A model generated the notes under the pieces. It was not told where the DNA came from, did no database searches, and saw nothing but the letters and a program-made list of their open reading frames with translations. From Heptranchias perlo (Eukaryota): a stretch of DNA of 64,000 bases. Each line of letters starts with the position of its first letter. Positions within the stretch are counted from its first letter, which is position 1. Both the position numbers and the translations under genes were made by a program. Shown one piece after another: positions 1 to 56,494 of this stretch. Location of the stretch: contig NC_090328.1 in the NCBI RefSeq assembly GCF_035084215.1, positions 127,286,001 through 127,350,000 on the forward strand. Reading direction: 5' to 3'.

Positions 1-745
1 ACTTGCTCTCTGATTTTTCCTGCCAAAGTGCATAACCTCACATTTTCCAATATTGTATTGCATCTGCCAAATCTCCGCCCACTCACCCAGCCTGTCTATA
101 TCCCCCTGTAGGTTTTTTATGTCCTCCTCACTCTCCACTTTCCCTCCCATCTTTGTATCATCTGCAAACTTTGATACGTTACACTCGGTCCCCTCCTCCC
201 AATTGTTAATATAGATTGTAAAGAGTTGGGGACCCAGCACCGACCCGAGGAACACCACTGGCTACTGGTTGCCAGTCCGAGAATGAACCATTTATCCCAA
301 CTCTCTGCTTCCTGTTAGATAACCAATCCTCCACCCATGCCAGAATATTACCCCCAATCCAGTGATTCTTTATCTTGAGCAATAATCTTTTATGTGGCAC
401 CTTGTCGAATGCCTTCTGGAAGTCTAAATACACTACGTCCACTGGTTCCCCTTTATCCACCCTGTACGTTATGTCCTCAAAGAACTCAAGCAAATTTGTC
501 AGACATGACTTCCCCTTCGTAAAGCCATGCTGACTTTGTCCTATTAAATTATGTTTATCCAAATGTTCCGCTACTGTCTCCTTAATAATAGACTCCAAAA
601 TTTTACCCACCACAGATGTTAGGCTAACTGGTCTATAATTTCCAGCCTTCTGCCTACTACCCTTTTTAAATAAGGGTGTTACATTAGCAGTTTTCCAATC
701 TGCCGGGACCTTTGCCGAGTCCAGAGAATTTTGGAAAATTATTAC
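1..745 (-). mobile_element. CR1 LINE fragment (RT domain), runs off the window edge
   Basis: DWKTANVTPLFKKG, NYRPVSLTS, QHGF, YLDFQKAFDKVPH and SGVP motifs in ORF 206..877. Confidence 0.9.
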
Positions 746-972
746 CACCTGCACGTTCCCCTCCAAGTCACACACCATCCTGACTTGGAAATATATCGCC
801 TTTCCTTCATCGTCACTGGGTCGATCTTGGAACTCCCTACCTAACAGCACTGTGGGAGAACCTTCACAGCGGTTCAAGAAGGCGGTTCACCACCACCTTC
901 TCAAGGGCATTTAGGGATGGGCAATAAATGCTGGCCTTGTCAGCGACACCCACATCCCATGAACGAATAAAA
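746..972 (+). mobile_element. 3' fragment of LINE family B (same family as 51902-54937)
   Basis: Matches the 3' end of the long copy, ending CATCCCATGAACGAATAAAAA. Confidence 0.85.
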
Positions 973-2315
973 AGAAATTGTTTTTCTCAGAATATGCATG
1001 GTGAATTGATGGCTACAAAATTATTGATGGCAACATTGGTAACATTGATTCTGGTTAAGTGATTCAATATCAATTATATCAATTTACAATGAGGCATATC
1101 ATTTAAGACACAACATGTAAACGCAGGGGTAGAATTTCTGCGATGCTTCCCAATCTCCTGCCGTAAGGTTGGTGGAAGATCGGCGCAAACTCCAGAGAAA
1201 CAGAATAAATGGCCCTTTCTCTGGAATTTCTGTCAAAGTTACAGTGGGGTATGAGAAGAACCCCGCAAACATTACTGGCGACAATGTTTACCACTAGTTT
1301 GCATACTCCTTAGCATTCATAATGATGCCAGTATAAATATGAATCTTAATTAACTGACAGCATATTTATAAATACTTTACAGATATACAAGTGGGATTTT
1401 CATATATAATTCCGAAGTATTTCACTTTTTCTTTCTGCAGATCAACCGACATCACAACAATTCTAAGAAGAACTGATGTATCCTGATAAAACATGAGTAC
1501 CATCACAACCAGTACTAGCACCAGAGCAAGAGCACCAGAACATCCAAACACAATCTGCAAAGTCTCCACCCCAACAAGAGCACATGTTAGTGTATGAAAA
1601 TGGAATATGTCCAGGGAAAGAAATAAATGCAAGTGTACTCTTTAGCATCCAAATGACACGACACATTGCCACTTCCCCCTCTTTTTCAGGAAGGCCTCTG
1701 AACAAAATGTGGGAACAGCCCTTTAAGGTTGACTATGCAATAAAGCACGTGTGGTATGAACTCTGTCAACGTAAAAAGTGTGCTGCACTTGAGGATTCAA
1801 GAGATAAATGTCTATCGTGCCATCCTGGAACCCAGCTTTGAAGGACTTTAGTCTGCTCTGCATTTTAGTGTGACTGGAATAGGTGCTGGCCTGGAGGAAC
1901 CTATGTGTGGTGCTTTAGCCAACTTGGTGATGGCACGTGTCTACTCACATTGTTAATTTAACTGAGTGAGGGATAGCTTGTAGTTTGGTACAAGGGAAAA
2001 GATAGGATAATATTTTAGGTTGTGACATTTTGCCAGTACTCACATTTTGTGTGCTGATGAAGAGTCTCCACTTGAAAAATTAACATCTATTTTTTCATTC
2101 CAGATGCTGATGGATCTGTGTATAGTACCAGCTTTATTCTGCCTTTTTTCCCCAGATTTCTTTTTGTCTATGCAGCAGTACATGATTGATTGTAAAATGT
2201 ATGGACAGTCATCTCATACAGGGAGTTAATGCTATTGATCTCATGGTAACAATAATCCTCACAGTTGCTGGTAACATATTTGCAACGACCAAGAATGATT
2301 TTAGATCTGTGCATA

Positions 2316-9487: not shown

Positions 9488-11203
9488 GACCTAGAAATTA
9501 GGAGCATATTCCCACCCCGCACTCCCTGCGCAGAATACTTACCCTGCCCATGAATGGTAGGGTCAAAGGAGCCCCATATATTGAGCCTTGGACCTCATAT
9601 CCACACTAACAACGCAATGGAAGGCGGCCATGCAGCTAAGTGGTGGAAGTTCAGGCTGCTTTTAATGCCGCAGCGGTCCACAGGTAAGTGATGGCCTTGG
9701 TGGGAGCAATTGGTGGCCAGGCGGTGGGCTGGGGGGGTAGCGTAAGCCAGCAGGAGCCCACGGTATTGGTGATCTCAGGGCTGGGGGGCGCGGGAGGGGG
9801 GGGGGGGGAGGCGGGGGCGATGAGATCAGGGGTCGGGGAGCCTTTTTAAAAATTATTCGTTCATGGGATGTAGGCGTCGCTGGCAAGGCCAGCATTTATT
9901 GCCCATCCCTAATTGCCCTTGAGAAGGTGGTGGCGAGCTACCTTCTTGAACCGCTGTAGTCCGTGTGGTGAAGGTTCTCCCACAGTGCTGTTAGGTAGGG
10001 AGTTCCAGGATTTTGACCCAGCGACGATGAAGGAACGGCGATATATTTCCAAGTCATGATGGTGTGTGACTTGGAGGGGAACGTGCAGGTGGTGGTGTTC
10101 CCATGCACCTGCTACCCATGTCCTTCTATGTGGTAGAGGTCATGGGTTTGGGAAGTGCACCGTGGCTGCAGTGCATCTTGTAGATAGTACACACTGCAGC
10201 CACGGTGCGCCAGTGATGGAGCGAGTGAATGTTTAAGGTGGTGGATGGGGTGCCAATCAAGCGAGCTGCTTTGTCCTGGATGGTGTCGAGCTTCTTGAGT
10301 GTTGTTGGAGCTGCACTCATCCAGGTAAATGGACAGTATTCCAATCACACTCCTGATTTGTGCCTTGTAGATGGTGGAAAGGCTTTGAGGAGTCAGGAGA
10401 TGAGTCACTTGCCGCAGAATACCCAGCCTCCGACCTGCTCTTGTAGCCACAGTTTTTATGTGGCTGGTCCAGTTAAGTTTCTGGTCAATGGTAACTCCCA
10501 GGATGTTGATGGTGGGGAATTCAGTGATGGTAATGCCGTTGAATGTCAAGGGGAAGTGGTTAGACTCTCTCTTGTGGGAGATGGTCAATGCCTGGCACTT
10601 GTCAGGCGCAAATGTTACTTGCCACTTATGAGCCCAAGCCTGGATGTTGTCCAGGTCTTGCTGCATGCGGGCACGGACTGCTTCATTATCTGAGGGGTTG
10701 CGAATGGAACCTGGCGGTCAGGGCTGGGGAGTGAGGGAGATGGGGGACCAGAGTAGGAAGGAGATTGGGGGTTGGGGCCAGGTAGCCTACAGGTCGGAGG
10801 TCGGGGATCTCTGGGCCGGGAGCATCGTCAATCGGGTGGGGTTTTCATGTGTGGTTGGGAGGTGCACCCCTGCTCTTTCCAGATCCATATCAAGGTAAGT
10901 AACTTACCTTTTCTCGTCGCAGGCATTCTGCAGGATTGGTTTCCCCGACTGCATCTTGCAAAGGTGCTGGCTGCCTCAGGGCTAACCAATTTTGCAGCGA
11001 GGACCTCAAGCAGGCATTCGGTCCGTCGTTTGCAAATCCAAGGGCCTAATATCTGCCTCAGGCGTGGGCAAAGGACACCTCCTGTTTGTCCTTACCTATT
11101 ATGACGCAGTTCTGGTCGGAAGTGTGCATGCACTTCCTGCCTGCTATTTTGGGGACTTCGGAGGCCATGAGAAACAGACGCTACGTGGCCCAATTTCTAG
11201 ACC
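9488..11203. mobile_element. GC-rich MITE/non-autonomous DNA transposon interrupted by a family-B LINE
   Basis: Imperfect terminal inverted repeats GACCTAGAAATTAGG / CCCAATTTCTAGACC, similar to those of 19316-20021. Confidence 0.55.
9848..10710 (-). mobile_element. 5'-truncated LINE family B copy
   Basis: MQQDLDNIQAWAHKWQVTFAPDKCQ and AAPTTLKKLDTIQDKAARLIG, near-identical to ORF 51966..53453. Confidence 0.9.
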
Positions 11204-17187: not shown

Positions 17188-17336
17188 TTAGTCTTTGCTT
17201 GTAAGACATAACCGTAGTGTGCTGTAACCCTGAGGCAACATGGGCACCACCAGTAACTTCCTGCACTTGGGAAATCCTGCCATTTTGAAAAAATGCAGGT
17301 TCCTTTCATGTTGTTGTTAGATAGCCATGGTGAAAC

Positions 17337-17694
17337 CATCCACAGGATGCACTGCAGCAACTCGCCAAGGCTTCTTCGACAGCACCTCCCAAACCCGCGA
17401 CCTCCACCACCTAGAAGGACAAGGGCACCAGGCACATGGGAAGAACACCACCTGCACGTTCCACTCTAAGTCACACACCATCCCGACTTGGAAATATATC
17501 GCCGTTCCTTCATTGTCGCTGGGTCAAAATCCTGGAACTCCCTTCCTAATAGCACTGTGGGAGAACCTTCACCACAGGGACAGCAGCAGTTCAAGAAGGC
17601 GGCTCACCACCACCTTCTCAATGGCAGTTAGAGATGGGCAATAACTGCTAGCCTCACCAGCGACGCCCACATCCCATGAACGAATAAAAAAAAA
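17337..17694 (+). mobile_element. 3' fragment of LINE family B
   Basis: Collinear with the 3' end of 51902-54937, ends GAACGAATAAAAAAAA. Confidence 0.88.
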
Positions 17695-18216: not shown

Positions 18217-18826
18217 TTTTTTTTTTATTCGTTCACGGGATGTGGGCGTCGCTGGCAAGGCCAGCATTTATTGCCCATCCCTAATTGCCCTCGAGAAGGT
18301 GGTGGTGAGCCGCCTTCTTGAACCGCTGCAGTCCGTGTGGTGACGGTTCTCCCACAGTGCTGTTAGGAAGGGAGTTCCAGGATTTTGACCCAGCGACAAT
18401 GAAGGAACGGCGATATATTTCCAAGTCGGGATGGTGTGTGACTTGGAGGGGAACATGCAGGTGGTGTTGTTCCCATGTGCCTGCTGCTCTTGTCCTTCTA
18501 GGTGGTAGAGGTCGCGGGTTTGGGAGGTGCTGTCGAAGAAGCCTTGGCGAGTTGCTGCAGTGCATCCCGTGGACGGTACACACTGCAGCCACGTGCGCCG
18601 GTGGTGAAGGGAATGAATGTTTAGGGTGGTGGATGTGGTGCCAATCAAGGGGGCTGCTTTGTCCTGGATGGTGTCGAGCTTCTTGAGTGTTGTTGGAGCT
18701 GCACTCATCCAAGCAAGTGGAGAGTATTCCATCACACTCCTGACTTGTGCCTTGTAGATGGTGGAAAGGCTTTGGGGAGTCAGGAGGTGAGACACTCGCC
18801 GCAGAATACCCAGCCTCTGACCTGCT
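18217..18826 (-). mobile_element. 5'-truncated LINE family B copy
   Basis: YKAQVRSVMEYSPLAWMSAAPTTLKKLDTIQ; poly(A) tail at ~18217. Confidence 0.9.
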
Positions 18827-19315
18827 CGTCTCCTTGAACTAAATAACATAAATGTAATGGGATTCCCATAGGGAAATTCACTGTGCAAATTGCACTAACT
18901 GAAAATGGCAATGACAACCTTCTTGACACAGTCAAGAAAAACATTGGCCTCAAATAAATAGTAAAAACATTCCTTTTCCACGGCCCCCTTAAATTATTCT
19001 CACAAAAATGGCAGTTCCCAACACTAGCAATCTATGATACTCATTTTATTTGGGCAGATGTTGAATTCCTAGCATGAAGGCCAGGAATCTGGGTGCGTGC
19101 TCATTTGAATATATTAAACGACCATTAGCATACTTAAATGGGGCTCTCACCTGAGCAACAGTTTCTCACAACAGTGTCCTGTCCAACTTTAATTTACATC
19201 GATTGAATGAAGATCTGGTGAGAACAATCTCCACCAGCAGGAGTGTAAATATACTGTAATTTCACTATGGAATACCTACATCTACACGTGCACAAGAACC
19301 TGTTATGGAAACATA

Positions 19316-26961: not shown

Positions 26962-29900
26962 TAGAATCATAGAAGTTTACAACATGGAAACAGGCCCTTT
27001 GGCCCAACATGTCCATGTCGCCCAGTTTATACCACTAAGCTAGTCCCAATTTCCTGCACTTGGCCCATATCCCTCTATACCCATCTTACCCATGTAACTG
27101 TCCAAATGCTTTTTAAAAGACAAAATTGTACCCGCCTCCACTACTGCCTCTGGCAGCTCGTTCCAGACACTCACCACCCTTTGAGTGAAAAAATTGCCCC
27201 TCTGGACCCTTTTGTATCTCTCCCCTCTCACCTTAAATCTATGCCCCCTCGTTATGGACTCCCCTACCTTTGGGAAAATATTTTGACTATCTACCTTATC
27301 TATGCCCCTCATTATTTTATAGACTTCTATAAGATCACCCCTAAACCTCCTATTCTCCAGGGAAAAAAGTCTCAGTCTATCCAACCTCTCCCTATAAGTC
27401 AAACCATCAAGTCCCGGTAGCATCCTAGTAAATCTTTTCTGCACTCTTTCTAGTTTAATAATATCCTTTCTATAATAGGGTGACCAGAACTGTACACAGT
27501 ATTCCAAGTGTGGCCGAACTAATGTCTTGTACAACTTCAACAAGACATCCCAACTCCTGAATTCAATGTTCTGACCAATGAAACCAAGCATGCTGAATGC
27601 CTTCTTCACCACCCTATCCACCTGTGACTCCACTTTCAAGGAGCTATGAACCTGTACTCCTAGATCTCTTTGTTCTATAACTCTCCCCAACGCCCTACCA
27701 TTAACGGAGTAGGTCCTGGCCTGATTCGATCTACCAAAATGCATCACCTCACATTTATCTAAATTAAACTCCATCTGCCATTCATCGGCCCACTGGCCCA
27801 ATTTATCAAGATCCCGTTGCAATCCTAGATAACCTTCTTCACTGTCCACAATGCCACCAATCTTGGTGTCATCTGCAAACTTATTAACCATGCCTCCTAA
27901 ATTCTCATCCAAATCATTAATATAAATAACAAATAACAGCGGACCCAGCACCGATCCCTGAGGCACACCGCTGGTCACAGTTTGAAAAACAACCCTCTAC
28001 AACCACCCTCTGTCTTCTGTCGTCAAGCCAATTTTGTATCCAATTGGCTACCTCACCTTGGATCCAGTGAGATTTAACCTTATGTAACAACCTACCATGC
28101 AGTACCTTGTCAAAGGCTTTGCTAAAGTCCATGTAGACCACGTCTACTGCACAGCCCTCATCTATCTTCTTGGTTACCCCTTCAAAAAACTCAATCAAAT
28201 TCGTGAGACATGATTTTCCTCTCTCAAAACCATGCTGACTGTTCCTAATCAGTCCCTGCCTCTCCAAATGCCTGTAGATCCTGTCTCTCAGAATACCCTC
28301 TAACAACTTACCCACTACAGATGTCAGGCTCACCGGTCTGTAGTTCCCAGGCTTTTCCCTGCCGCCCTTCTTAAACAAAGGCACAACATTTGCTACCCTC
28401 CAATCTTCAAGCACCTCACCTGTAGCTGTCGATGATTCAAATATCTCTGCTAGGGGACCCGCAATTTCCTCCCTAACCTCCCATAACGTCCTGGGATACA
28501 TTTCATCAGGTCCCGGAGATTTATCTACCTTGATGCGCATTAAGACTTCCAGCACCTCCCTCTCTGTAATATGTACACTCCCCAAGTTCCCTAACATCCA
28601 TGCCTTTCTCAACCGTAAATACCGATGTGAAATATTCATTTAGGATCTCACCCATCTCTTGTGGTTCCGCATACAGATGACCTTGTTGATCCTTAAGAGG
28701 CCCTACTCTCTCCCTAGTTACTCTTTTGCCCTTTATGTATTTGTAGAAGCTCTTTGGATTCTCCTTTGCCTTATCTGCCAAAGCAATCTCATGTCCCCTT
28801 TTTGCCCTCCTGATTTCTCTCTTAACTCTACTCCAGCAATCTCTATACTCTTCAAGGGATCCACTTGATCCCAGCTGCCTATGCATGTCATATGCCTCCT
28901 TCTTCTTTTTGACTAGGGCCTCAGTCTCCCGAGCCATCCAAGGTTCCCTACTTCTACCAGCCTTGCCCTTCACTTTATAAGGCATGTGCTCACCCTGAAC
29001 CCTGGTTAACACACTTTTGAAAGCCTCCCACTTACCAGACGTCCCTTTGCCTGCCAACAGACTCTCCCAATCAACTTCTGAAAGTTCCTGTCTAATACCA
29101 TCAAAATTGGCCTTTTCCCAATTTAGAATTTTAACTTTTGGGCCAGACCTATCATTCTCCATAGCTATCTTAAAACTAATGGAATTATGATCACTGGTCC
29201 CAAAGTGATCCCTCACGAACACTTCTGTCACCTGCCCTTCCTTATTTCCCAAGAGGAGGTCAAGTTTTGCCCCCTCTCTAGTCGGGCCATCCACATACTG
29301 AATGAGAAATTCCTCCTGAATACACTCAACAAATTTCTCCCCATCCAAGCCCCTAATGCTATGGCTGTCCCAGTCAATGTTGAAAAAGTTAAAGTCCCCT
29401 ACTATTACCACCCTATTTTTCTTGCAGCTGTCTGTAATCTCCTTACATATTTGCTCCTCAATTTCCCGTTGACTATTTGGGGGTCTGTAGTACAATCCTA
29501 TCAAAGTGATCTCTCCCTTCTTATTTTTCAGTTCTACCCATATAGACTCAGTGGGCGAACCCTCGGATATATCCCCTCTCACTACTGCCGTGATGTTCTC
29601 CCTAATCAAGAACGCAACTCCCCCTCCTCTCTTACCTCCTGCTCTATCTTTCCTATAGCATCTGTACCCTGGAACATTGAGCTGCCAGTCCTGCCCCTCC
29701 CTTAGCCATGTTTCAGTAATAGCTATAACATCCCAGTCCCATGTACCCATCCATGCCCTGAGTTCATCTGCCTTGCCCATCAGACTTCTTGCATTGAAAT
29801 AAATGCAGTTTAATCTAGACTTCCCTTGGTCTTTGCCCTGCTTTCTCAGACCATCTGTCCGGTCATGTTTTGTACACTCTCCTTTACTGCCTTTTGTTTC

Positions 29901-30566
29901 TGTCACCACTTTACTTCCCACTGACTTCCTACATCGGTTCCCATCCCCCTGCCACATTAGTTTAAACCCTCCCCAACAGAACTAGCAAACACTCCCCCTA
30001 GGACATTGGTTCCAGTCCTGCCCAGATGCAGACCGTCCAATTTGTACTGGTCCCACCTCCCCACGAAACGGTTCCAATGGCCCAGGAATTTGAATCCCTC
30101 AAGCCACGTATTCATCCTAGCTATCCTGTCATTCCTACTCTGACTAGCCCATGGCACTGGTAGCAATCCTGAGATTACTACCTTTGAGGTCCTACTTTTT
30201 AGTTTAACTCCTAACTCCCTAAATTCAGCTTGTAGGACCTCATCCCGTTTTTTACTTATATCGTTGGTACCTATATGTACCACGACAACTGGCTGTTCAC
30301 CCTCCTCCTCCAGAATGTCCTGCAGCCGCTCCGAGACATCCCTGACCCTTGCACCAGGGAGGCAACATACCATCCTGGAGTCTCGGTTGCGTCCGCAGAA
30401 ACGCCTGTCTATTCCCCTTACAATCGAGTCCCCTATCACTATAGCTCTGCCACTCTTTTTCCTGCCCTCCTGTGCAGCAGAGCCATCCACGGTGCCATGA
30501 ACCTGGCCGCTGCCACCTTCCCCTGGTGAGCCATCTCCCACAACAGTATCCAAAACGGTATCCAAA
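26962..30566 (-). mobile_element. Near full-length CR1 LINE: ORF1 C-terminal SGNH-esterase domain and ORF2 (APE endonuclease, RT) in three pieces
   Basis: VIGDSIVRG and VVVHIGTND (esterase); YFNARS, IAITETWL, VGDFN, SDHN (APE); RT motifs; (ATTCTATG)n tail; 7-bp TSD ATGATAA at 26955-26961 and 30567-30573. Confidence 0.95.
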
Positions 30567-36225: not shown

Positions 36226-39200
36226 TGCAAACGTGACTCCAGGATGGTATGTTGCCTCCCTGGTGCTAGGGTCAAGGATGTCGTGGAGAGGCTGCAGGGC
36301 ATTCTGGAGCGGGAAGGTGAACAGCCAGTAGTTGTGGTCCATATCGGTACCAAGGACATAGGTTAAAAAAAAAGGGATGAGGTCTGGCAAGGTGAATTTA
36401 AGGACTTAGGAGATAAATTAAAAAGCAGGGCCTCAAAGGTAGTGATCTCAGGATTACTAGCAGTGCCACGTGCTAGTGAGTATAGGAACAGGAGAATAGA
36501 CCGGATGAATGCGTGGCTGCAGGGATGGGATAGGAGGGAGGGATTTAGATTCCTGGGACATTGGGACCGGTTCTGGGGAAGGTGGGACCTGTACAAGCGG
36601 GATGGGTTACACCAGAGCAGGATCGGGACCAATGTCCTCGTGAGGGTGTTTGCTACTGCTGTTGGGGAAGGTTTAAACTAGAGTGGCAGGGGGATGGGAA
36701 CCTGAGCGGGGAGTCAGAAGGGAGTCAAGATGAGAGCAGCAAGAGAGGGGAAGACCCAGGGGAAATTTACAATACAAATAGTACAAACAGTTGTTCAAGA
36801 ACAAGTGAAAGGGAAAAGCGTAGAGCAGCAGAAAGAAAGTGTACTTTAGGCACTACAGATAAAGTGAAAACGAGAAGGCGTAAAGCGATTAACCCAGCAT
36901 CAAAGCTGAAGGTCAGGCTAGGGTGTGTGGCCCAACTAAGAGTTCTATATACAAATGCACGGAGTATAAGGAATAAATTAAATGAACTACAGGTTCAAAT
37001 TCAAATTGGAGGGTATGACATGATAGCTATTACTGAGACATGGCTGCAGGATGGTCAGGATTGGGAACTAAATATATCGGGTTATAAGGTCTATAGGAGA
37101 GATAGGGAAAATGGGAGGGGGGAAGAGTAGCCTCAGTGATTAGGGATGAAATCACTTCAATGATAAAGGAGGATATAACGAGAGGTAAGCAGCCAACAAA
37201 GACCTTATGGGTTGAATTGAGAAATAGGAAAGGATCTAAGACTATAGTGGGAGTTGTGTATAGGACCTCTGGCAGCAGCTCTGAAGTGCTAGATTGTATA
37301 AATGCAGAGATTAGACAAGCGTGTAATAAAGGCATAGTGGTCTTAATGGGGGACTTTAACCTTCACATAGATTGAGAAAAGCAGACTAGCAACTGTCAGA
37401 AAGGTAGTAAATTTCTTGAGTGTGTCCGGGATAGTTTTCTACAGCAGTATGTCCCAGAGGCAACAAGGGGGCAAGCCACACTAGATTTAGCAATGAGTAA
37501 TGAACCAGATTTAGTTAACAGCTTAACTGTGCGTGAACATCTATCCAATAGCGATCATAACATGATCGAGTTCAATGTTCTAAGATTCTAGACTTGGGTG
37601 GGATGAGACAGAGACTGTCCACAGCAAACTGGGCAAATCTGTTAATGGGTAAAACGACTGATGATCAGTGGGAAATGTTTAAAGAAACATTTAACGTGAT
37701 ACAGAATCGGTTTATACCCCTGAGGGGCAAGAACACTACTTGCCAAAAAAAACTAGCCATGGACAACTAAAGAGGTAAGGGACAGTATAAGACATAAGGA
37801 AAGGGCATACAAAAAGGCAAAAAATGGCACAGATCCTGACGAATGTGAAAGATACAAAGATCAACAAAGGGTCACAAAACAGATAGTAAGAGCTACAAAA
37901 AGAGTATGAAAAGAAACTTGCAAGGGATATCAAAAAGAGGGTGGTCAGGAGCAATGTTGGCCCCTTCAAAACTGAAAGTGGGGATATTGTCATTGACAAT
38001 GGGGAAATGGCGGACATGTTGAACAATTACTTTGCGTCAGTATTTAGTGGAGAAAGAGGATAGCATGCCGGAAATCCCAAGAAAACTAATATTGAATTGG
38101 AGACAGGGACTCAATAAAATTAACATAAGTAAAACAACAGTAATGAAGAAAATAACAGCACTAAAGAGTGACAAATCCCCAGGACCAGATGGTTTCCATC
38201 CCAGGGTTTTAAAGGAAGTAGGTGAGCACATTGCGGATGCCCGAACTATAATCTTTCAAAGTTCTCTAGATTCAGGAACTGTCCCTCTAGATCGGAAAAT
38301 TGCACATGTCACTCCGCTTTTTAAGAAAGGAGAGAGAGGGAAACCAGGGAATTATAGACCAGTTAGCCTAACTTCTGTTGTGGGGAAAATGCTGGAGCCT
38401 ATAATTAAGGATAGGGTGACTGAACACTTTGAGAATTTTCAGTTAATCAGAGAGAGCCAGCATGGATTTGTGAAAGGTAGGTCGTGCCTGACAAACCTGA
38501 TTGAATTTTTTGAAGAGGTGACTAAAGTAGTGGACAGGGGAATGTCAATGGATGTTATTTATGTGGACTTCCAGAAGACATTTGATAAAGTCCCACAGAA
38601 GAGACTGTTAGCTAAGATAGAAGCCCATGGAATCGAGGGAAAAGTACGGGCTTGGTTAGGAAGTTGGCTGCGCGAAAGGTTACGGAGAATGGGGATAACA
38701 GGTAAGTACTCACATTAGGAACATAGGAACAGGAGTAGGCCATTCAGCCCCTCGTGCCTGCTCCGCCATTTGATAAGATCATGGCTGATCTGTGATCTAA
38801 CTCCATATACCTGCCTTTGGCCCATATCCCTTAATACCTTTGGTTGCCAAAAAGCTATCCATCTCAGATTTAAATTGGCAGGATGTGACTAGTGGAGTCC
38901 CGCAGGGATCTGTCTTGGGGCCTCAATTATTCACAATATTTATTAACGACTTAGATGAAGGCATAGAAAGTCTCATATCTAAGTTTGCCGATGACACAAA
39001 GATTGGTGGCATTGTAAGCAGTGTCGATGAAAACATAAAATTACAAAGCGATATTGATAGATTAGGTGAATGGGCAAAACTGTGGCAAATGGAATTCAAT
39101 GTAGACAAATGTGAGGTGATCCACTTTGGATCAAAAAAGGATAGAACAGGGTACTTTCTAAATGGTAAAAAGTTAAAAACAGTGGATGTCCAAAGGGACT

Positions 39201-39904
39201 TAGGGGTTCAGGTGCATAGATCATTGAAGTGTCATGAACAGGTGCAGAAAATAATCAAGAAGGCAAATGGAATGCTGGCCTTTATATCTAGAGGACCAGA
39301 GTACAAGGGGGCAGAAGTTATGCTGCAGCTATACAAAACCCTGGTTAGACCGCACCTGGAGTACTGTGAGCAGTTCTGGGCACCGCACCTTCGGAAGGAC
39401 ATGTTGGCCTTGGAGGGAGTGCAGCGTAGGTTTACTAGAATGATACCCGGACTTCAAAGGTTAAGTTACGAGGAGAGATTACACAAATTGGGGTTGTATT
39501 TTGTAGAGTTTAGAAGGTTAAGGGGTGATCTGATCAAAGTTTATAAGATATTAAGGGGAACAGATAAGTGGATAGAGAGAAACTATTTCCGCTGGTTGGG
39601 GATTCTAGAAGTAGGTGGCACAGTCTAAAAATTAGAGCCAGACCTTTCAGGAGTGAGATTAGAAAACATTTCTACACACAAAGGGTGGTAGAAGTTTGGA
39701 ACTCTCTTCCGCAAACGGCAATTGATACTAGCTCAATTGCTAAATTTAAATCTGAGATAGATAGCTTTTTTGGCAACCAAAGGTATTAAGGGATATGGGC
39801 CAAAGGCAGGTACATGGAGTTAGATCACAGATCAGCCATGATCTTATCAAATGGCGGAGCAGGCACGAGGGGCTGAATGGCCTACTCCTGTTCCTATGTT
39901 CCTA
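36226..39904 (+). mobile_element. Near full-length CR1 (ORF1 esterase C-terminus, APE, RT), multiply disrupted
   Basis: VVVHIGTKD; LYTNARS; IAITETWL; MGDFN; RT ORFs 38032..38718 and 38840..39628; (TTCCTATG) tail. Confidence 0.92.
38716..38875 (-). mobile_element. Short CR1 3'-end insertion, inverted copy of the host element's own 3' end
   Basis: Reverse complement of ~39743-39904 with about 3 differences by eye; interrupts GKYSH|WQDVTSGVPQG. Confidence 0.88.
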
Positions 39905-44264: not shown

Positions 44265-46650
44265 GAATCATAGAAATTTACGGCACAGAAGGAGGCCATT
44301 CAGCCCATCTTGCCTGTGCCGACCGAAAAAGAGCCATACAGCCTAATCCTACATTCCAGCTCTTGGTCTGTCGCCTTGTAGGTTACGGCACTTCAAGTGC
44401 ATATCCAAGTACTTTTTAATAGCGATGAGGATTTCTGCCGCTACCACCCTTTCAGGCATTGAGTTCCAGACCCCCACCGCCCTCTGGGTGAAAAGATTCT
44501 CCTCAACTCCCCTCTCATCCCTCTATCAATTACTTTAAATCTATGCCCCCCCACCCCGGTTATTGACCTCCCTGCTAAGGGAAGTAGGTCCTTCCTAACC
44601 ATTCTATTCAGGCCACTCATAACTGTAGAAACTTAACTGGTCCAGCCACTTAAATACTGTGGCTACAAGAGCAGGTCAGAGGCTGGGTATTCTGCAGCGA
44701 GTGACTCACCTCCTGACTCCCCAAAGCCTTTCCACCATCTTCAAGGCACAAGTCAGGAGTGTGATGGAATACTCTCCACTTGCTTGGATGAGTGCAGCTC
44801 CAACAACACTCAAGAAGCTCGACAACATCCAGGACAAAGCAGCCCGCTTGATTGGCACCCCATCCAACACCCTAAACATTCACTCCCTTCACCACTGGCA
44901 CACTGTGGCTGCAGTGTGCACCATCCACAGGATGCACTGCAGCAACTCGCCAAGGCTTCTTCGACAGAACCTCCCAAATCCTGCGACCTCTACCATCTAG
45001 AAGGACAAGGACAGCAGGCACATGGGAACAACACCACCTGCACGTTCCCCTGCAAGTCATTTACCATCCCAACTTGGAAATATATCACCTTTCCTTCATC
45101 ATCGCTGGGTCAAAATCCTGGAACTCTCTACCTAACAGCACTGTGGGAGAACCTTCGCCACACGGACTGCAGTGGTTCAAGATGGTGGCCCACCACCACC
45201 TTCTCAAGGGCAATTAGGGATGGGCAATAAATGCTGGCCTTGCCAGCGACGCCCACATCCCATGAATGAATAAAAAAAATAATTTTACACAGCTCAATTA
45301 AATGTCCCCTCAGCCTCCTCTTTCCAAAGAAAATAACCCCAGCCTATCCAATCTTTCCTCATAGCTAAAATTTTTCAGTCCTGACAACATCCTTGTAAAT
45401 CTCCTCGGTACCCTCTCTAGTGCAATCACATCCTACTTGTAACGTGGTGACCAAAACTGTATGCAGTACTCTAGCTGTGGCCTAACTAGTGTTTTATACA
45501 GTTCTAGCATAACCTCCCTGCTCTTATATTCTATGCCACGACTAATAAAGGAAAGTATCCCATATGCCTTCTTAACCACCTTATCCACCTGTCCTGCTAC
45601 CTTCAGGAATCTGTGGATATGCACTCTAAGGTCTCTCTCTCTCCCTCTACACTTCTCAGTATCCTACCATTTATTGTGTATTCCCTTACCTTGTTTGCCA
45701 TCCCCAAATGCATTACCTCACACTTCTCTGGATTGAATTCCATTTGCCACTTTTCTGCCCACCTGACCAGTCCACTGATATCTTCCTGCGGACTACAGCT
45801 TTCTTCCTCACTATCAATCACACGGCCAACTTTTGTATCATCTGCAAACTTCTTGATCAAGCCCCCTACATTTAAGTCTAAATCATTGATATATACCACA
45901 GAATGCAATGGACCTAGTATTGCACCCTGTGGAACCCCACTGGAAACAGCCTTCCAGTCATAAAAACACCCGTCGACTATTACCCTTTGCTTCCAGCCAC
46001 TGAGCCAATTCTGGACCAACTTGCCACTTTCCCTTGGATCCCATGGGCTTTTACTTTTCTGATCAGTCTGCCATGTGGGACCTTATCAAAAGCCTTGCTA
46101 AAGTCTATGTAGACGACATCAAACGCACTACCCTCATCGACCCTCCTTGTTACCGCCAAAAAATTCAATCAAGTTCGTCAGACACGACCTTCCCTTAACA
46201 AATCCATGCTAATTGTACTCGATTAATCTGTCCCTTTCTAAATGACGATTAACACTGGCCCTCAGAATTGTTTCCAATAATTTGCCCACCACCGAGGTTA
46301 GGCTGACTGGCCTATAATTACTCGGTCAATCCCTTTCTCCCTTTTTAAACAACGGTACAATGTTAGCAGTCCTCCAGTCCTCCGGCACCACACCTATAGC
46401 CAGAGAGGATTGGAAAATGAAGGTCAGAGCTTCCGCTATTTCCTCCCTTACTTCTCTTAGCAGCTGGGATACATTTCATTCGGATCTGGTGATTTATCTA
46501 CTTTCAAAGATGCTAAACCCCTTAATATTTCCTCTCTCACTATGTTTATCCCATCCATTATTTCACACTCCTCCTCCTTAACTACAACGTCTGCATCGGC
46601 TCCCTCTTTTGTGAAGACAGACGCAAAGTATTCATTGAGAACATGGTTCT
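44265..46650 (-). mobile_element. 5'-truncated CR1 (same subfamily as 5700-7528), interrupted by family-B LINE
   Basis: MDGINIVREEILRGLASLKVDKSP matches ORF 5886..7169; RT motifs; CR1 tail at ~44265. Confidence 0.88.
44625..45279 (+). mobile_element. 5'-truncated LINE family B copy nested in CR1
   Basis: AGQRLGILQRVTHLLTPQSLST...; poly(A) tail; ATAA duplicated at both junctions. Confidence 0.9.
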
Positions 46651-51901: not shown

Positions 51902-54900
51902 TTTTTTTTTTATTCGTTCACGGATTGTGGGCGTCGCTGGCGAGGCCAGCATTTATTGCCCATCCCTAATTGCCCTTGAGAAGGTGGTGGTGAGCCACCT
52001 TCTTGAACCGCTGCAGTCCGTGTGGTGACGGTTCTCCCACAGTGCTGTTAGGAAGGGATTTCCAGGATTTTGACCCAGCGACAATGAAGGAACGGCGATA
52101 TATTTCCAAGTCGGGATGGTGTGTGACTTGGAGGGGAACGTGCAGGTGGTGTTGTTCCCATGTACCTGCTGCTCTTGTCCTTCTAGGTGGTAGAGGTCGC
52201 GGGTTTGGGAGGTGCTGTCGAAGAAGCCTTGGCGAGTTGCTGCAGTGCATCCTGTGGATGGTGCACACTGCAGCCACTGTGCGCCGGTGGTGAAGGGAGT
52301 GAATGTTTAGGGTGGTGGATGGGGTGCCAATCAAGCGGGCTGCTTTCTCTTGGATGGTGTCGAGCTTCTTGAGTGTTGTTGGAGCTGCACTCATCCAGGC
52401 AAGTGGAGAGTATTCCATCACACTCCTGACTTGTGCCTTGTAGATGGTGGAAAGGCTTTGGGGAGTCAGGAGGTGAGTCAATCGCCGCAGAATACCCAGC
52501 CTCTGACCTGCTCTCATAGCCACAGTATTTATATGGCTGGTCCAGTTAAGTTTCTGGTCAATGGTGACCCCCAGGATGTTGATGGTGGGGGATTCGGCGA
52601 TGGTAATGCCGTTGAATGTCAAGGGGAGGTGGTTAGACTCTCTCTTGTTGGAGATGGTCATTGCCTGGCACTTATCTGGCGCGAATGTTACTTCCCACTC
52701 ATGAGCCCAAGCCTGGATGTTGTCCAGGTCTTGCTGCATGCGGGCTCGGACTGCTTCATTATTTGAGGGGTTGCGAATGGAACTGAACACTGTGTAGTCA
52801 TCAGCGAACATCCCCATTTCTGACCTTATGATGGAGGGAAGGTCATTGATGAAGCAGCTGAAGATGGTTGGGCCTAGGACACTGCCCTGAGAAACTCCTG
52901 CAGCAATGTCCTGGGGCTGAGATGATTGGCCTCCAACAACCACTACCATCTTCCTTTGTGACAGGTATGACTCCAGCCACTGGAGAGTTTTCCCCCTGAT
53001 TCCCATTGACTTCAATTTTACTCGGGCTCCTTGGTGCCACACTCGGTCAAATGCTGCCTTGATGTCAAGGGCAGTCACTCTCACCTCACCTCTGGAATAC
53101 AGCTCTTTTGTCCATGTTTGGACCAGGGCTGTAATGAGGTCTGGAGCCGAGTGGTCCTGGCGGAACCCAAACTGAGCATCGGTGAGCAGGTTATTGGTGA
53201 GTAAGTGCCGCTTGATAGCACTGTCGACGACACCTTCCATCACTTTGCTGATGATTGAGAGTAGACTGATGGGGCGGTAATTGGCCGGATTGGATTGGTC
53301 CTGCTTTTTGTGGACAGGACATACCTGGGCAATTTTCCACATTGTCGGGTAGATGCCAGTGTTGTCGCTGTACTGGAACAGCATGGCTAGAGGCACAGCT
53401 AGTTCTGGAGCACAAGTCTTCAGCACGACAGCCGGGATGTTGTCGAGGCCCATAGCCTTTGCTGTATCCAGTGCACTCAGCCGTTTCTTGATATCACGTG
53501 GAGTGAATCAAATTGGCTGAAGACTGGCTTCCGTGATGGTGGGGATATCGGGAGGAGGCCGAGATGGATCATCCACTCGACACTTCTGGCTGAAGATGGT
53601 TGCAAACACTTCAGCCTTGTCTTTTGCATTCACGTGCTGGACTCCGCCATCATTGAGGATGGGGATGTTTGCAGAGCCTCCTCCTCCCGTTAGTTGTTTA
53701 ATTGTCCACCACCATTCACGACTGGATGTGGCAGGACTGCAGAGCTTTGATCTGATCCGTTGGTTGTGGAATCGCTTAGCTCTGTCTATAGCATGTTGCT
53801 TCTGCTGTTTAGCATGCATGCAACCAGTTTTGAGCTGCTAGATCCATTCTGAATCTATCCCATTTAGCACGGTGGTAGTGCCACACAACACGTTGGATGG
53901 TGTCCTCAGTGCGAAGACGGGACTTCATCTCCACGAGGACTGTGCAGTGCTCACTCCTACCAATACTGTCATGGACAGATGTATTTGCGACAGGTAGATT
54001 GGTAAGGACGAGGTCAAGTAAGTTTTTCCCTCGTGTTAGTTCGCTCACCACCTGCCGCAGGCCCAGTCTGGCACTCTGCTACCGAGCCACTCTTGGTGAT
54101 GGACATTGAAGTCCCCACCCAGAGTACATTTTGTGCCCTTCAGTGCTTCCTCCAAGTGGTGCTCAACATGGAGGAGGACTGATTCATCAGCTGAGGGAGG
54201 ACGGTCGGTGGTAATCAGCAGGAGGTTTCCTTGCCCATGTTTGACCTGATGCCATGAGATTTCATGGGGTCCAGAGTCAATGTTGAAGACTCCCAGGGCC
54301 ACTCCCTCCTGACTGTATATCACTGTACCGCCACCTCTGGTGGGTCTGTCCTGCCGGTGGGACAGGACATACCCAGGGATGGTGATGGAAGAGTCTGGGA
54401 CGTTGGCTGAAAGGTATGATTCTGAGAGTATGACTAGTCTGTGGGACAGCTCTCCCAATTTTGGCACAAGTCCCCAGATGTTAGTAAGGAGGACCTTGCA
54501 GGGTCGACTGGGCTTGGTTTGCCGTTGTCGTGTCCGGTGCCCAGTGGTCCGATGCCGGGTGGTCCGTCCGGTTTTATTCTTATTATGACTTTTCGTAGCG
54601 AGATTTTACAACTGAGTGGCTTGCTAGGCCATTTCAGAGGGCAATTAAGAATCAACCACATTGCTGTGGGTCTGGAATCACATTTAGGCCAGACCGGGTA
54701 AGGACGGCAGGTTTCCTTCCCTAAAGGACATTAGTGAACCAGATGGGTTTTTACGACAATCCGGTAGTTTCATGGCCATCAGTATTTTAATTCCAGATTT
54801 TTATTTAATTAATTGAATTTAATTAATTAAATTTAAATTCGCCAGCTGCCGTGGCGGGATTTGAACTCATGACTCTGGATTTTAGTCCAGGCCGCTGGAT

Positions 54901-54937
54901 TACTAGTCCAGTAACATAACCACTATGCTACCGTCCC
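51902..54937 (-). mobile_element. Longest LINE family B copy: tRNA-derived head, SINE-like core, single APE-RT ORF (disrupted), stem-loop 3'UTR, poly(A)
   Basis: APE motifs VLLTNIWGL, ILSESYL, GGDFNVHH, LLDLVLTN, RSEH; 495-aa RT ORF 51966..53453 (NYRPISLLS, QFGFR, ALDIKAAFDRVWH, QGSVLGP, FADD); head at 54841-54937. The RT is clearly distinct from the CR1 copies; its clade (CR1/L2 supergroup, possibly Zenon-like) is inferred. Confidence 0.9.
54857..54930 (-). promoter_or_regulatory. Type-2 RNA polymerase III internal promoter in a tRNA-Thr(AGT)-like head
   Basis: A box TAGCATAGTGG (54930-54920), B box GAGTTCAAATCC (54868-54857), anticodon arm CTGGA-CTAGTAA-TCCAG. Confidence 0.75.
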
Positions 54938-55886
54938 CACAATCTACCAACCTTAAAATGTAAAAGGAATTCAAATTACCATGAGAAACACATTCTGGCC
55001 TAGTAATTGGATCACACTGTGCCTGGTTTACAGGCACAAAACGGGCACCTCAGTGGCCAATATGACAGGTGTTGGGTGGCACTCATTCTGCGCCAGAAGT
55101 ATGCTGCCTACCATATTGGTGAAGGATCCTCCTTAAAAGTCCAGGGCGTTACGACCTTTCCATATGCCGTGCCTGCTGAGGTCAGTTTCTTGAGGTGCTT
55201 AAAGTGACCGCTGCAGACTGCCACCAGAAAGGTCAGATGAATATTTTTACCTATCTTATTGTGGAGCTGGGAGGAGCAGAAGTGCTCCTCCCAGCTCCAC
55301 ATTAAATCCGTGGGCTGCTGCCAGCCAACGCTCACCTCCTCCCAATTGCCACACCCCCACACCCCCAACCTAGACTCTGCTTAAGATCCCAGTGCTTCCC
55401 TGGGCTACCGAGCTGCCCCTGGGCCGCGATTGGTGCCTGCAGCTTGAAGGTAATGAGCAAATGAGGCCGGCGGACCAAATTCTCACGGTCTTGCCTCCAA
55501 TCACTTTTGACCCGTGTGCTGCACTCTTATCGTGCCCCAATTCGGGCATGGTTCAATTTCTAGGTCTCTGTTTCAGCTTAATGCACTTTCTGAAGTTTAT
55601 AGAACACAAAAGAAAAGTTACAAAAGATCTGTAACCTATTTTCTCTCTCTGTCACACACATGGTCTCACTTGCTAAAAGCACTTTACCTGAATAAAATTT
55701 TTGAAATTTGTCCTCTTGCTTGCCTTCAAATAATTATGAAAAACAATTCAGCAGAAACTGATCGAAGTTAAAGAAAATGTTCCATCAGTGCAGATGATTT
55801 AATGGTACTGATCCTATTATTGCAACTATGTTGACCAATGAAAAAGGAAAAAGCATAAAAGAAAAGTATCTCAACAATTCAATTAC

Positions 55887-56054
55887 CTCAGCAATAAGGG
55901 CGTAGTTCGGAACCATCATTGCAATCGGTCTAAAAAGAGCCTTTAAGTTGTCTGGTAGTTCTGTTCTTCCAGCATAACCAGGGTTCATAGTGATGAATGC
56001 TGCGCAAGACATAACCAACTTGATTTCTCTACCTTCAAACATGAAACGGGAGAG
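55887..56054 (-). CDS. DNAH6: DNAH6 exon ([13 protein letters not shown]...[24 protein letters not shown]...YALIAE)
   Basis: 168 nt, CAG acceptor after a long pyrimidine tract, GTAATT donor; [15 protein letters not shown] motif. Confidence 0.95.
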
Positions 56055-56494
56055 CTGCAGAAAAAAAGAACAAAAAAAAAACTTATATAACACTTACTTT
56101 ACTTTCAATTTTCTCTTCTGATTGTTTTCCCTTATATCATCCTTTCTCGAAGGTGGCAACTTATGATTGGTTGTACAGGGTTCAGAAACCTCAATAGCAA
56201 TTGAGCAACCCTCATTCTACATCTCTGAAACTCGCCAAAAAAGGTTAGCAGGCTATTTAAACATGGACTGCATTGCAATCAGGCCCAATTATTTCCTCAG
56301 CCAACGTTCACACGTGGAACACTTACAGAGAATTACATAGAATTTACAGCACAGAAACAGGCCATTAGGCCCAACAAGTCTATGACGGTGTTTATGCTCC
56401 ACACAAGCCTCCTCCCACCCTACTTCATCTTACCCTATCAACATATCATTTCTAATAAGGATCAACAGACAGCAATCAAGAAAAAGGGGAAAAA

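What the first reader, a model, noticed from the sequence alone, without database searches (positions are those of the whole stretch)
51902..54937. Candidate Pol III-transcribed, protein-coding retroelement: tRNA/SINE head fused to an ORF1-less APE-RT LINE
Seen: on the minus strand the element begins GGGACGGTAGCATAGTGG with tRNA-type A and B boxes. It continues through an AT-rich linker and a ~170-nt SINE-like core (CTGGTTCACTAATGTCCTTTAGGGAAGGAAACCTGCCGTCCTTACCCGGTCTGGCC...). It then passes into the endonuclease-RT frame, with no tail or TSD in between, and ends in a stem-loop 3'UTR and poly(A). There is no room for an ORF1. Established: LINEs normally use Pol II promoters, while tRNA heads define non-coding SINEs. 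From memory the core resembles a conserved SINE central domain (possibly the MetaSINE domain; needs checking). Inference: this is one autonomous family with a SINE 5' end, and the matching short SINE would be its internal-deletion relative. This copy is dead (small deletions, a TGA at 53508-53510), but five 3' copies in 64 kb show the family was prolific. I cannot check whether it has been described.
Basis: partly seen in the sequence, partly recalled or inferred. Interest (0 to 1): 0.9.

Follow-up and report, generated by a model that had tools for sequence, protein, structure and literature searches.

The report
Shark LINE with a tRNA promoter
This is a dead copy of a very common shark jumping gene that starts with a tRNA-type promoter and avoids the T-runs that stop RNA polymerase III, so it is likely copied into RNA by the enzyme that normally makes only non-coding RNA, even though it codes for a protein.

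Summary
Confirmed, and not a chance fusion. The window holds a decayed copy of a 3.33-kb family: tRNA-type A/B-box head, AT-rich linker, 143-nt core, one 973-codon endonuclease-RT frame, stem-loop, short A tail. 39 of 39 other scored copies share the head-ORF junction; 20 of 20 copies found from the protein side are collinear with it (12 reach the head, none has an ORF1). It is the elasmobranch Zenon LINE: seven published consensus sequences (sharks and a ray) begin with the same head, which that paper's text never mentions. New evidence for Pol III: the sense strand has no TTTT and few TTT (ORF 5 vs 12.7 under synonymous shuffling, P=0.001), unlike two CR1 controls and 79 of 80 distant LINEs, and the A/B boxes persist across species while the spacer drifts. 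No AUG lies in frame before the endonuclease; an out-of-frame AUG uORF overlaps its start. Against: no RNA data, TTTT absence alone is weak (P 0.01-0.11), and the companion SINE often has T4+ in its linker. The core is not Meta. The scan noted the same family once on other DNA.

The parts
51902..54938 (-). Whole element: decayed full-length copy of the tRNA-headed elasmobranch Zenon LINE (intact unit about 3.33 kb)
   Evidence: identity to published Zenon 5' ends read by eye
54856..54938 (-). tRNA-derived head; anticodon-like loop reads AGU in the Rfam alignment; anticodon arm is duplicated in the spacer
54920..54930 (-). A box TAGCATAGTGG
   Evidence: 7 of 7 elasmobranch consensus sequences fit TRGCNTAGTGG (by eye)
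54856..54868 (-). B box GAGTTCAAATCCC
   Evidence: 6 of 7 consensus sequences fit GRGTTCRAATCC (by eye)
54751..54855 (-). AT-rich linker with a short palindrome, free of TTTT
54608..54750 (-). Conserved 143-nt core shared by the LINE and the short SINE-like relatives; not Meta or UCON3; weak Deu-like resemblance; no unusual fold (z -0.8)
54434..54661 (-). AUG-started upstream frame (75 codons here, 76 in most copies) in another frame, overlapping the start of the EN-RT frame; no Pfam match
51966..54605 (-). Single APE-endonuclease + RT frame, no in-frame AUG before residue 250; broken here by deletions and a TGA at 53510-53508; 973 codons in intact copies
51912..51965 (-). 3' UTR stem-loop (with AATAAA in its inner loop), shared with the short relatives
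51902..51911 (-). A10 tail
744..977 (+). 3' fragment of the same family (87%)
9853..10710 (-). 3' fragment (90%)
17335..17694 (+). 3' fragment (94%)
18217..18827 (-). 3' fragment (97%)
44627..45279 (+). 3' fragment (93%)

Best explanation
This is a dead copy of an autonomous, ORF1-less Zenon (CR1-group) LINE of sharks and rays whose full-length unit begins with a tRNA-derived A/B-box head, and that head likely works as its promoter, so that RNA polymerase III likely makes a 3.3-kb protein-coding RNA. Shown: the head-core-ORF-tail unit moves as one piece, has intact 973-codon copies under purifying selection, starts at one fixed base, and is depleted of T-runs on the sense strand. Inferred: TFIIIC binds the boxes, Pol III starts at the G 8 nt before the A box, reads through the T-run-free body and stops at the first T-run in the flank; the uncapped RNA is translated without an in-frame AUG (near-cognate or cap-independent start behind the conserved core, or coupling to the overlapping AUG uORF); EN-RT binds the 3' stem-loop and inserts by target-primed reverse transcription with short (4-7 bp) or no target duplications. 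Internal deletions keep promoter and tail and so give ready-made SINEs.
For: Junction recurs: 40 of 40 scored matches (39 other loci, of 2688 candidates) span head to EN, with unrelated flanks in the 29 inspected. 35 of 39 run to the A tail. Protein-anchored, head-blind search: 17 of 53 matches have a stop-free 973-codon frame; 20 of 20 fetched are collinear with the head-bearing copy, 12 reach the head, 8 are 5'-truncated inside the same sequence, none carries another 5' region. Shared changes are 26 syn/18 non-syn against 388/848 for private ones. T-runs: whole unit TTT+ 8 vs 22.0 expected, TTTT+ 0 vs 4.4; ORF TTT+ 5 vs 12.7 under synonymous codon shuffling (P=0.001) while TT, A3, C3, G3 are normal; the other strand has 19 TTTT+. 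27 of 35 and 18 of 20 copies have no TTTT; the 13 TTTT events in 64 copies are private but for one pair. Controls: two ORF1-bearing CR1 families of this genome have 7-14 TTTT+ per 3 kb (15 of 15 copies); 79 of 80 distant LINE loci have them. Seven published shark/ray Zenon consensus 5' ends keep the A box (7 of 7) and B box (6 of 7) while the spacer varies, and show no TTTT in the 400 letters visible; hagfish (2) and coelacanth (1) Zenons lack the head and have T-runs (by eye). Target duplications >=5 bp in 9 of 31 copies vs 1.7 for mismatched flanks.
Against: No transcript, polymerase-occupancy or cap evidence was obtained. TTTT absence by itself is weak: P=0.0135 (base shuffle), 0.03 (third-position model), 0.09 (synonymous shuffle), 0.11 (dinucleotide model), and it is one lineage. 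11 of 19 short SINE-like relatives carry T4-T10 at one shared linker site; if the source SINE had that run, head-bearing RNA was made through a terminator (A-tails also turn to T after insertion in 6 of 54 LINE copies, which may explain part of it). In those short copies the boxes are no better kept than the spacer (83%, 81% vs 87%; neutral decay, and L032 has a variant B box). One distant LINE without a visible head also shows T-run depletion (L213, 10 vs 30). No translation route is shown: core folds no better than shuffles, no canonical slippery heptamer in the overlap. The extra 5' G could also come from a cap.
Confidence: 0.6

Rival explanations
1. The head is a captured SINE relic that now serves as an ordinary 5' UTR; an internal Pol II promoter in head, linker or core drives a capped RNA, and T-run scarcity comes from C-rich codon use or another constraint.
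For: LINEs are generally held to be Pol II-transcribed (PMC5786205); extra 5' G in 40 of 52 copies could be cap-derived; AATAAA lies 45 nt before the tail; shared T-run in the SINE linker; capping would solve translation.
Against: Box conservation across sharks and a ray with a drifting spacer; TTT depletion survives codon-preserving shuffling and is specific to T; 5' end sits exactly where a tRNA-type Pol III start is expected; still no in-frame AUG.
Confidence: 0.2
2. Split labour: Pol III makes the RNA that is copied, but the protein comes from host Pol II transcripts that run through intact copies (or the tRNA-like head is a cleavage signal that frees the unit from longer RNA).
For: Explains T-run avoidance and the fixed 5' end without needing translation of uncapped RNA; many intact frames exist (17 of 53); this copy lies in the sense direction of a dynein gene.
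Against: Purifying selection on the ORF in the source lineage fits use in cis; no in-frame AUG helps no capped route either; the head does not fold as a cloverleaf.
Confidence: 0.17
3. A LINE landed by chance in or behind a SINE at this locus.
For: None beyond the window copy being dead.
Against: 39 other loci with the same junction and unrelated flanks; 20 of 20 protein-anchored copies collinear; same start in five other species.
Confidence: 0.01

Closest known systems
Elasmobranch Zenon LINEs (SquAca_Zenon-1/2/3, CarCar_Zenon-1, RhiTyp_Zenon-1, ScyCan_Zenon-1, HypSab_Zenon-1; PMC13343379, preprint 10.64898/2026.01.13.699120)
   Same: Same family: near-identical head, core and ORF start in the first 400 letters visible (by eye); 2.9-3.3 kb, no ORF1, A tail.
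   Different: The paper's main text has 0 occurrences of tRNA, polymerase, promoter or start codon; head, T-run avoidance, missing AUG, uORF and companion SINE are not described there. Only 400 letters per sequence were visible.
Lepidopteran Zenon and its internal-deletion derivative Persaeus (PMC6740152, passages read)
   Same: About 3.3 kb, single ORF, A tail, successful short derivatives made of 5' and 3' ends.
   Different: Persaeus is stated to lack tRNA homology and a Pol III promoter; here both long and short forms carry A/B boxes.
RTE-1_DAn and relatives (one sentence in PMC5786205)
   Same: A LINE that holds a tRNA-like sequence.
   Different: RTE clade; mentioned only as a source of accidental hits, no position or promoter claim. 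Shows that tRNA-like sequence in a LINE has a precedent.
tRNA-derived SINEs with conserved bodies (Meta, UCON3, Deu) and bipartite LINE-derived SINEs (PMC5786205, PMC7245038, PMC4824008)
   Same: tRNA head, conserved middle, LINE tail.
   Different: Those are non-coding; here the coding LINE itself carries head and middle, so the SINE is one deletion away. Core is not Meta or UCON3; Deu resemblance is weak.
R2 retrotransposons
   Same: Works alike in principle: a LINE whose RNA is not a Pol II mRNA (depends on rRNA transcription with a 5' ribozyme, PMC5786205); uncapped, AUG-independent translation is recalled, not checked.
   Different: R2 has no own promoter, is site-specific and uses another endonuclease; no ribozyme family matched here.

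Membership tests
Zenon (CR1 group) | Single ORF with APE endonuclease and RT | tested here: met
   P0001: RVT_1 E 5e-39, Exo_endo_phos_2 E 1.3e-13
Zenon (CR1 group) | No ORF1 | tested here: met
   344 nt before the frame; 0 of 20 protein-anchored copies have another 5' region; only a 76-codon overlapping uORF without Pfam match
Zenon (CR1 group) | Poly-A tail | tested here: met
Zenon (CR1 group) | RT groups with named Zenon references | tested here: inconclusive
   No named Zenon protein was available; tree places P0001 in a 17-row clade (98/94) of unnamed and amphioxus proteins apart from this genome's canonical CR1s; identity with published Zenon 5' ends read by eye
Canonical CR1 | ORF1 plus microsatellite tail | tested here: not met
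   Control families have both; this family has neither; RT 32-34% identical
tRNA-derived SINE (SINE2) | tRNA-like head with A and B boxes | tested here: met
tRNA-derived SINE (SINE2) | Short and non-coding | tested here: not met
   3.33 kb with 973-codon frame; met only by the 18 short head+core+tail relatives among 29 loci
tRNA-derived SINE (SINE2) | Transcribed by RNA polymerase III | not testable with these tools
   Indirect only: T-run depletion, box conservation
MetaSINE | 66-bp Meta domain | tested here: not met
   Meta consensus shown in PMC7245038 Fig. S4 has no visible likeness to the core (by eye, no score computed)
UCON3-domain SINE | UCON3 domain | tested here: not met
   Alignment in PMC7245038 Fig. 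S2 unlike the core (by eye)
DeuSINE | Deu/Nin domain | tested here: inconclusive
   Core scores above shuffles (p<0.05) against 7 of 8 Deu-like copies found in held loci, but alignment is gappy, the copies are related and were picked with a motif that resembles the core
V-SINE / CORE-SINE | V or CORE domain | not tested
   No reference sequence seen in any call; from recall they are unlike the core

The most novel reading that the evidence does not exclude
Shark and ray Zenon is an autonomous retrotransposon transcribed by RNA polymerase III from a tRNA promoter: a 3.3-kb, terminator-free, uncapped RNA that is translated in cis into a 970-residue protein without an in-frame AUG, kept since before sharks and rays split, and that spawns SINEs by simple internal deletion.
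Probability: 0.45. Interest if true: 0.92.

Novelty: new variant of a known kind. Interest (0 to 1): 0.74.

Why it matters
The SINE/LINE divide rests on promoters: Pol III makes short non-coding RNA, and a review of SINE origins states that SINEs cannot encode a protein (PMC5786205). A Pol III-driven coding LINE with thousands of full-length copies, many intact, would be a natural long Pol III mRNA and a test bed for cap-free, AUG-free translation in vertebrates. It also gives a direct route for SINE birth (delete the ORF) and a possible source for conserved SINE middles. Intact natural copies make the key tests simple reporter assays.

Tried and rejected
Expression: no RNA holder listed (23 of 24 rows hold the stretch, none on record as RNA); laying contigs of 4 runs from 4 coded organisms covered 30 of 30 bins and showed core-to-tail joints in all four, but no listed piece bridges head and ORF, and contigs give no start, strand or level. 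No relatives in viral contigs. Distant LINEs in metagenome contigs (24-41% identity): 0 of 80 with an A+B box upstream by pattern, many lack their 5' end; relaxed ARAGORN gave only noise; an Rfam scan of 17 of them was not run. Ribozyme or known RNA family in head/core: none. Stop read-through from AUG-GCC-UAG-CAA in the core: rejected, a second stop follows in most copies and the frame relation differs between species (by eye). Canonical slippery site: none in L032. Four core motifs in main texts: 0 papers. Literature searches for a Pol III-transcribed or tRNA-headed LINE (listings and abstract starts only) found no such description; Repbase, Dfam, SINEBase and subscription journals were not searchable, the whale-shark paper and the BovB paper were not read, and supplements of PMC5499810, file 1 of PMC4824008 and the preprint could not be seen, so the companion SINE may already be named. 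A SINE-derived 5' end on BovB is recalled only.

Full report
Observation. The minus strand from 54938 to 51902 holds, in order, a tRNA-like head (A box 54930-54920, B box 54868-54856), an AT-rich linker, a 143-nt core, an endonuclease-RT frame (54605-51966), a 54-nt 3' UTR and A10. The head matches Rfam tRNA only weakly (20.3 bits) and is no tRNA gene. Against the intact copy L032 the window copy is 97.6% identical, with nine deletions and CGA>TGA at 53510-53508. Five more 3' fragments lie in the window. The nearest coding stretch, about 0.85 kb upstream on the same strand, matches the dynein motor (PF12774, E 1e-24), so the copy is probably intronic.

It is one mobile unit. A head-to-EN query in the own genome G000 (3.25 Gb) gave 2688 candidates; all 40 scored matches span the junction. 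The 29 other loci inspected have unrelated flanks and the same start. Of 39 extended loci 35 run to the A tail, about 3.33 kb; four have frames of 962-973 codons. Queries that hold no ORF sequence give the same: 28 of 29 (head+core) and 26 of 29 (core only) continue into the ORF. The reverse test, a search with an amphioxus protein (P0022, 40% identical), scored 53 matches, 17 with a stop-free 973-codon frame; all 20 fetched are collinear with L032, 12 reach the head, 8 are truncated within the same sequence, none has an ORF1 or other leader. Target duplications are short: 5 bp or more in 9 of 31 copies against 1.7 for mismatched flanks, none found in 8. Changes shared by 8 or more copies are 26 synonymous to 18 non-synonymous, private ones 388 to 848; 19 fixed differences picked from the other-organism table are 11 to 8: the source lineage was under purifying selection.

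What it is. A survey of CR1-group elements (preprint 10.64898/2026.01.13.699120, parts 1-4 of 6 read; journal version PMC13343379, passages and supplement rows) reports ORF1-less, A-tailed Zenon elements in five elasmobranchs. Its Supplementary Table 2 lists seven such sequences (white shark, whale shark, catshark, spiny dogfish x3, a stingray); the first 400 letters, all that could be seen, show the same head, core and ORF start (by eye). So the family is known as sequence and the head predates the shark-ray split (roughly 270-300 million years, recalled). The main text never uses the words tRNA, polymerase, promoter or start codon. The two hagfish and one coelacanth Zenon rows do not begin with such a head, and moth Zenon derivatives are stated to lack one (PMC6740152, passages). 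My RT tree (33 rows) puts the protein among 37-48% identical unnamed and amphioxus relatives, away from this genome's canonical CR1s; no named Zenon protein was on hand.

Evidence on the promoter. Pol III stops at T-runs (established knowledge), so a 3.3-kb Pol III unit must avoid them. The window copy, 27 of 35 and 18 of 20 further copies, and 6 of 10 older copies have no TTTT on the sense strand, against about 20 AAAA runs; the 13 internal events in 64 copies are private but for one pair. In L032, TTT+ is 8 vs 22.0 and TTTT+ 0 vs 4.4 under base shuffling; in the ORF TTT+ is 5 vs 12.7 when codons are shuffled among synonyms (P=0.001) and 5 vs 16.5 under a third-position model, while TT, A3, C3 and G3 are not depleted. 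TTTT alone is weaker (P 0.0135-0.11). Two ORF1-bearing CR1 families of the same genome have 7-14 TTTT+ per 3 kb (15 copies counted of 20 fetched), and 79 of 80 distant LINE loci have them (most are AT-richer, and one, L213, is depleted without a visible head). Across the seven published 5' ends the A box fits TRGCNTAGTGG in 7 and the B box GRGTTCRAATCC in 6, while the spacer varies in sequence and length (about 41-52 nt), and none has TTTT in the visible part (by eye). The first TTTT downstream of a copy is within about 300 nt in most cases. These are signatures, not proof: no RNA evidence was obtained.

The short relatives. Recent internal deletions with different breakpoints exist (L074, L122, L126). 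A diverged element next to L135 led to 5698 candidates; of 29 loci, 18 are head+core+tail elements of about 400-440 nt (mostly 76-81% to L032), one lacks the tail, and 10 are older full-length LINEs (91-95% over their length). Short and long forms start at the same base, the short forms have varied tail junctions, and some keep a few bases past the core that match the other species' LINE sequence there (by eye), which fits repeated internal deletion of a LINE that already had the head. Against the Pol III reading, 11 of the 19 short copies have T4-T10 at one linker site; A-tracts turn to T after insertion in 6 of 54 LINE tails, but whether the source SINE had the run is open. The core is unlike Meta and UCON3 (PMC7245038 supplement, by eye) and weakly like Deu-type copies (7 of 8 at p<0.05, biased test). 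How the LINE first got head and core, probably by template switch from an older tRNA SINE, is inferred.

Translation. The frame has no Met before residue 250, past most of the endonuclease, and stops close it upstream in nearly all copies, although the 35 residues before the first endonuclease motif are basic like the N-termini of relatives. An AUG in the core opens a 76-codon frame that overlaps the start (open past the first motif in 38 of 45 copies, which young copies would show without selection); 6 of 7 published sequences have an AUG in this same off frame just before the start (by eye; frame checked only in the ray). No canonical slippery site, no unusual core fold, no ribozyme match. 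A cap-free, AUG-free start or uORF coupling is therefore inferred, not shown.

Verdict. Real, recurrent and ancient. The family is a published Zenon; a tRNA-like stretch in a LINE has one passing precedent (RTE-1_DAn; PMC5786205, parts 1-4 of 5 read). My searches found no description of a Pol III-driven coding LINE, within a library that lacks Repbase, Dfam and most subscription journals. The T-run result with controls is the added evidence. Pol III as working promoter 0.6; Pol II with a relic head 0.2; split labour 0.17. New variant of a known kind; interest 0.74.

Noticed in passing
window 55788-56093 (-): Coding stretch matching the dynein heavy-chain motor (PF12774); the element lies downstream on the same strand, probably in an intron.
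   Followed up: partly
window 27070-30017 (-) and 36890-39790 (+): Two canonical CR1 families with ORF1 and microsatellite tails; the first is young (40 of 40 scored matches 99-100%). Their ORF1 regions are about 80% alike while ORF2s are about 65%, hinting at an ORF1 swap.
   Followed up: partly
46 full-length copies (L031-L069, L231-L249): Deletions of 5 nt or more cluster at the 5' end: 39 of 69 in the first 900 of 3330 nt, many with 1-8 nt microhomology; may reflect template jumps late in reverse transcription.
   Followed up: partly
L135:137-846; L251-L279: Abundant older SINE-like family with this head, core and tail (5698 candidates); no name found; shared T-run in its linker unexplained.
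   Followed up: partly
window about 7 kb before the right end on the - strand; L032, L133, L243, L244, L254, L261, L276: Deu-type tRNA SINE copies (SacSINE1-like by motif) found by two short motifs.
   Followed up: no
L213:971-3556: Distant LINE in a metagenome contig with strong T-run depletion (TTTT+ 10 vs 30, TTT+ 50 vs 82) and no A/B box found; L167 has 0 vs 2.
   Followed up: no
P0002, P0010, P0013, P0014: Pieces of this ORF (78-83% identical) are built into predicted shark proteins in public databases, probably annotation artefacts or exonisation.
   Followed up: no
tails of L034, L058, L061, L062, L069, L249: A tails partly turned into T runs right after GAAT (6 of 54 copies).
   Followed up: partly
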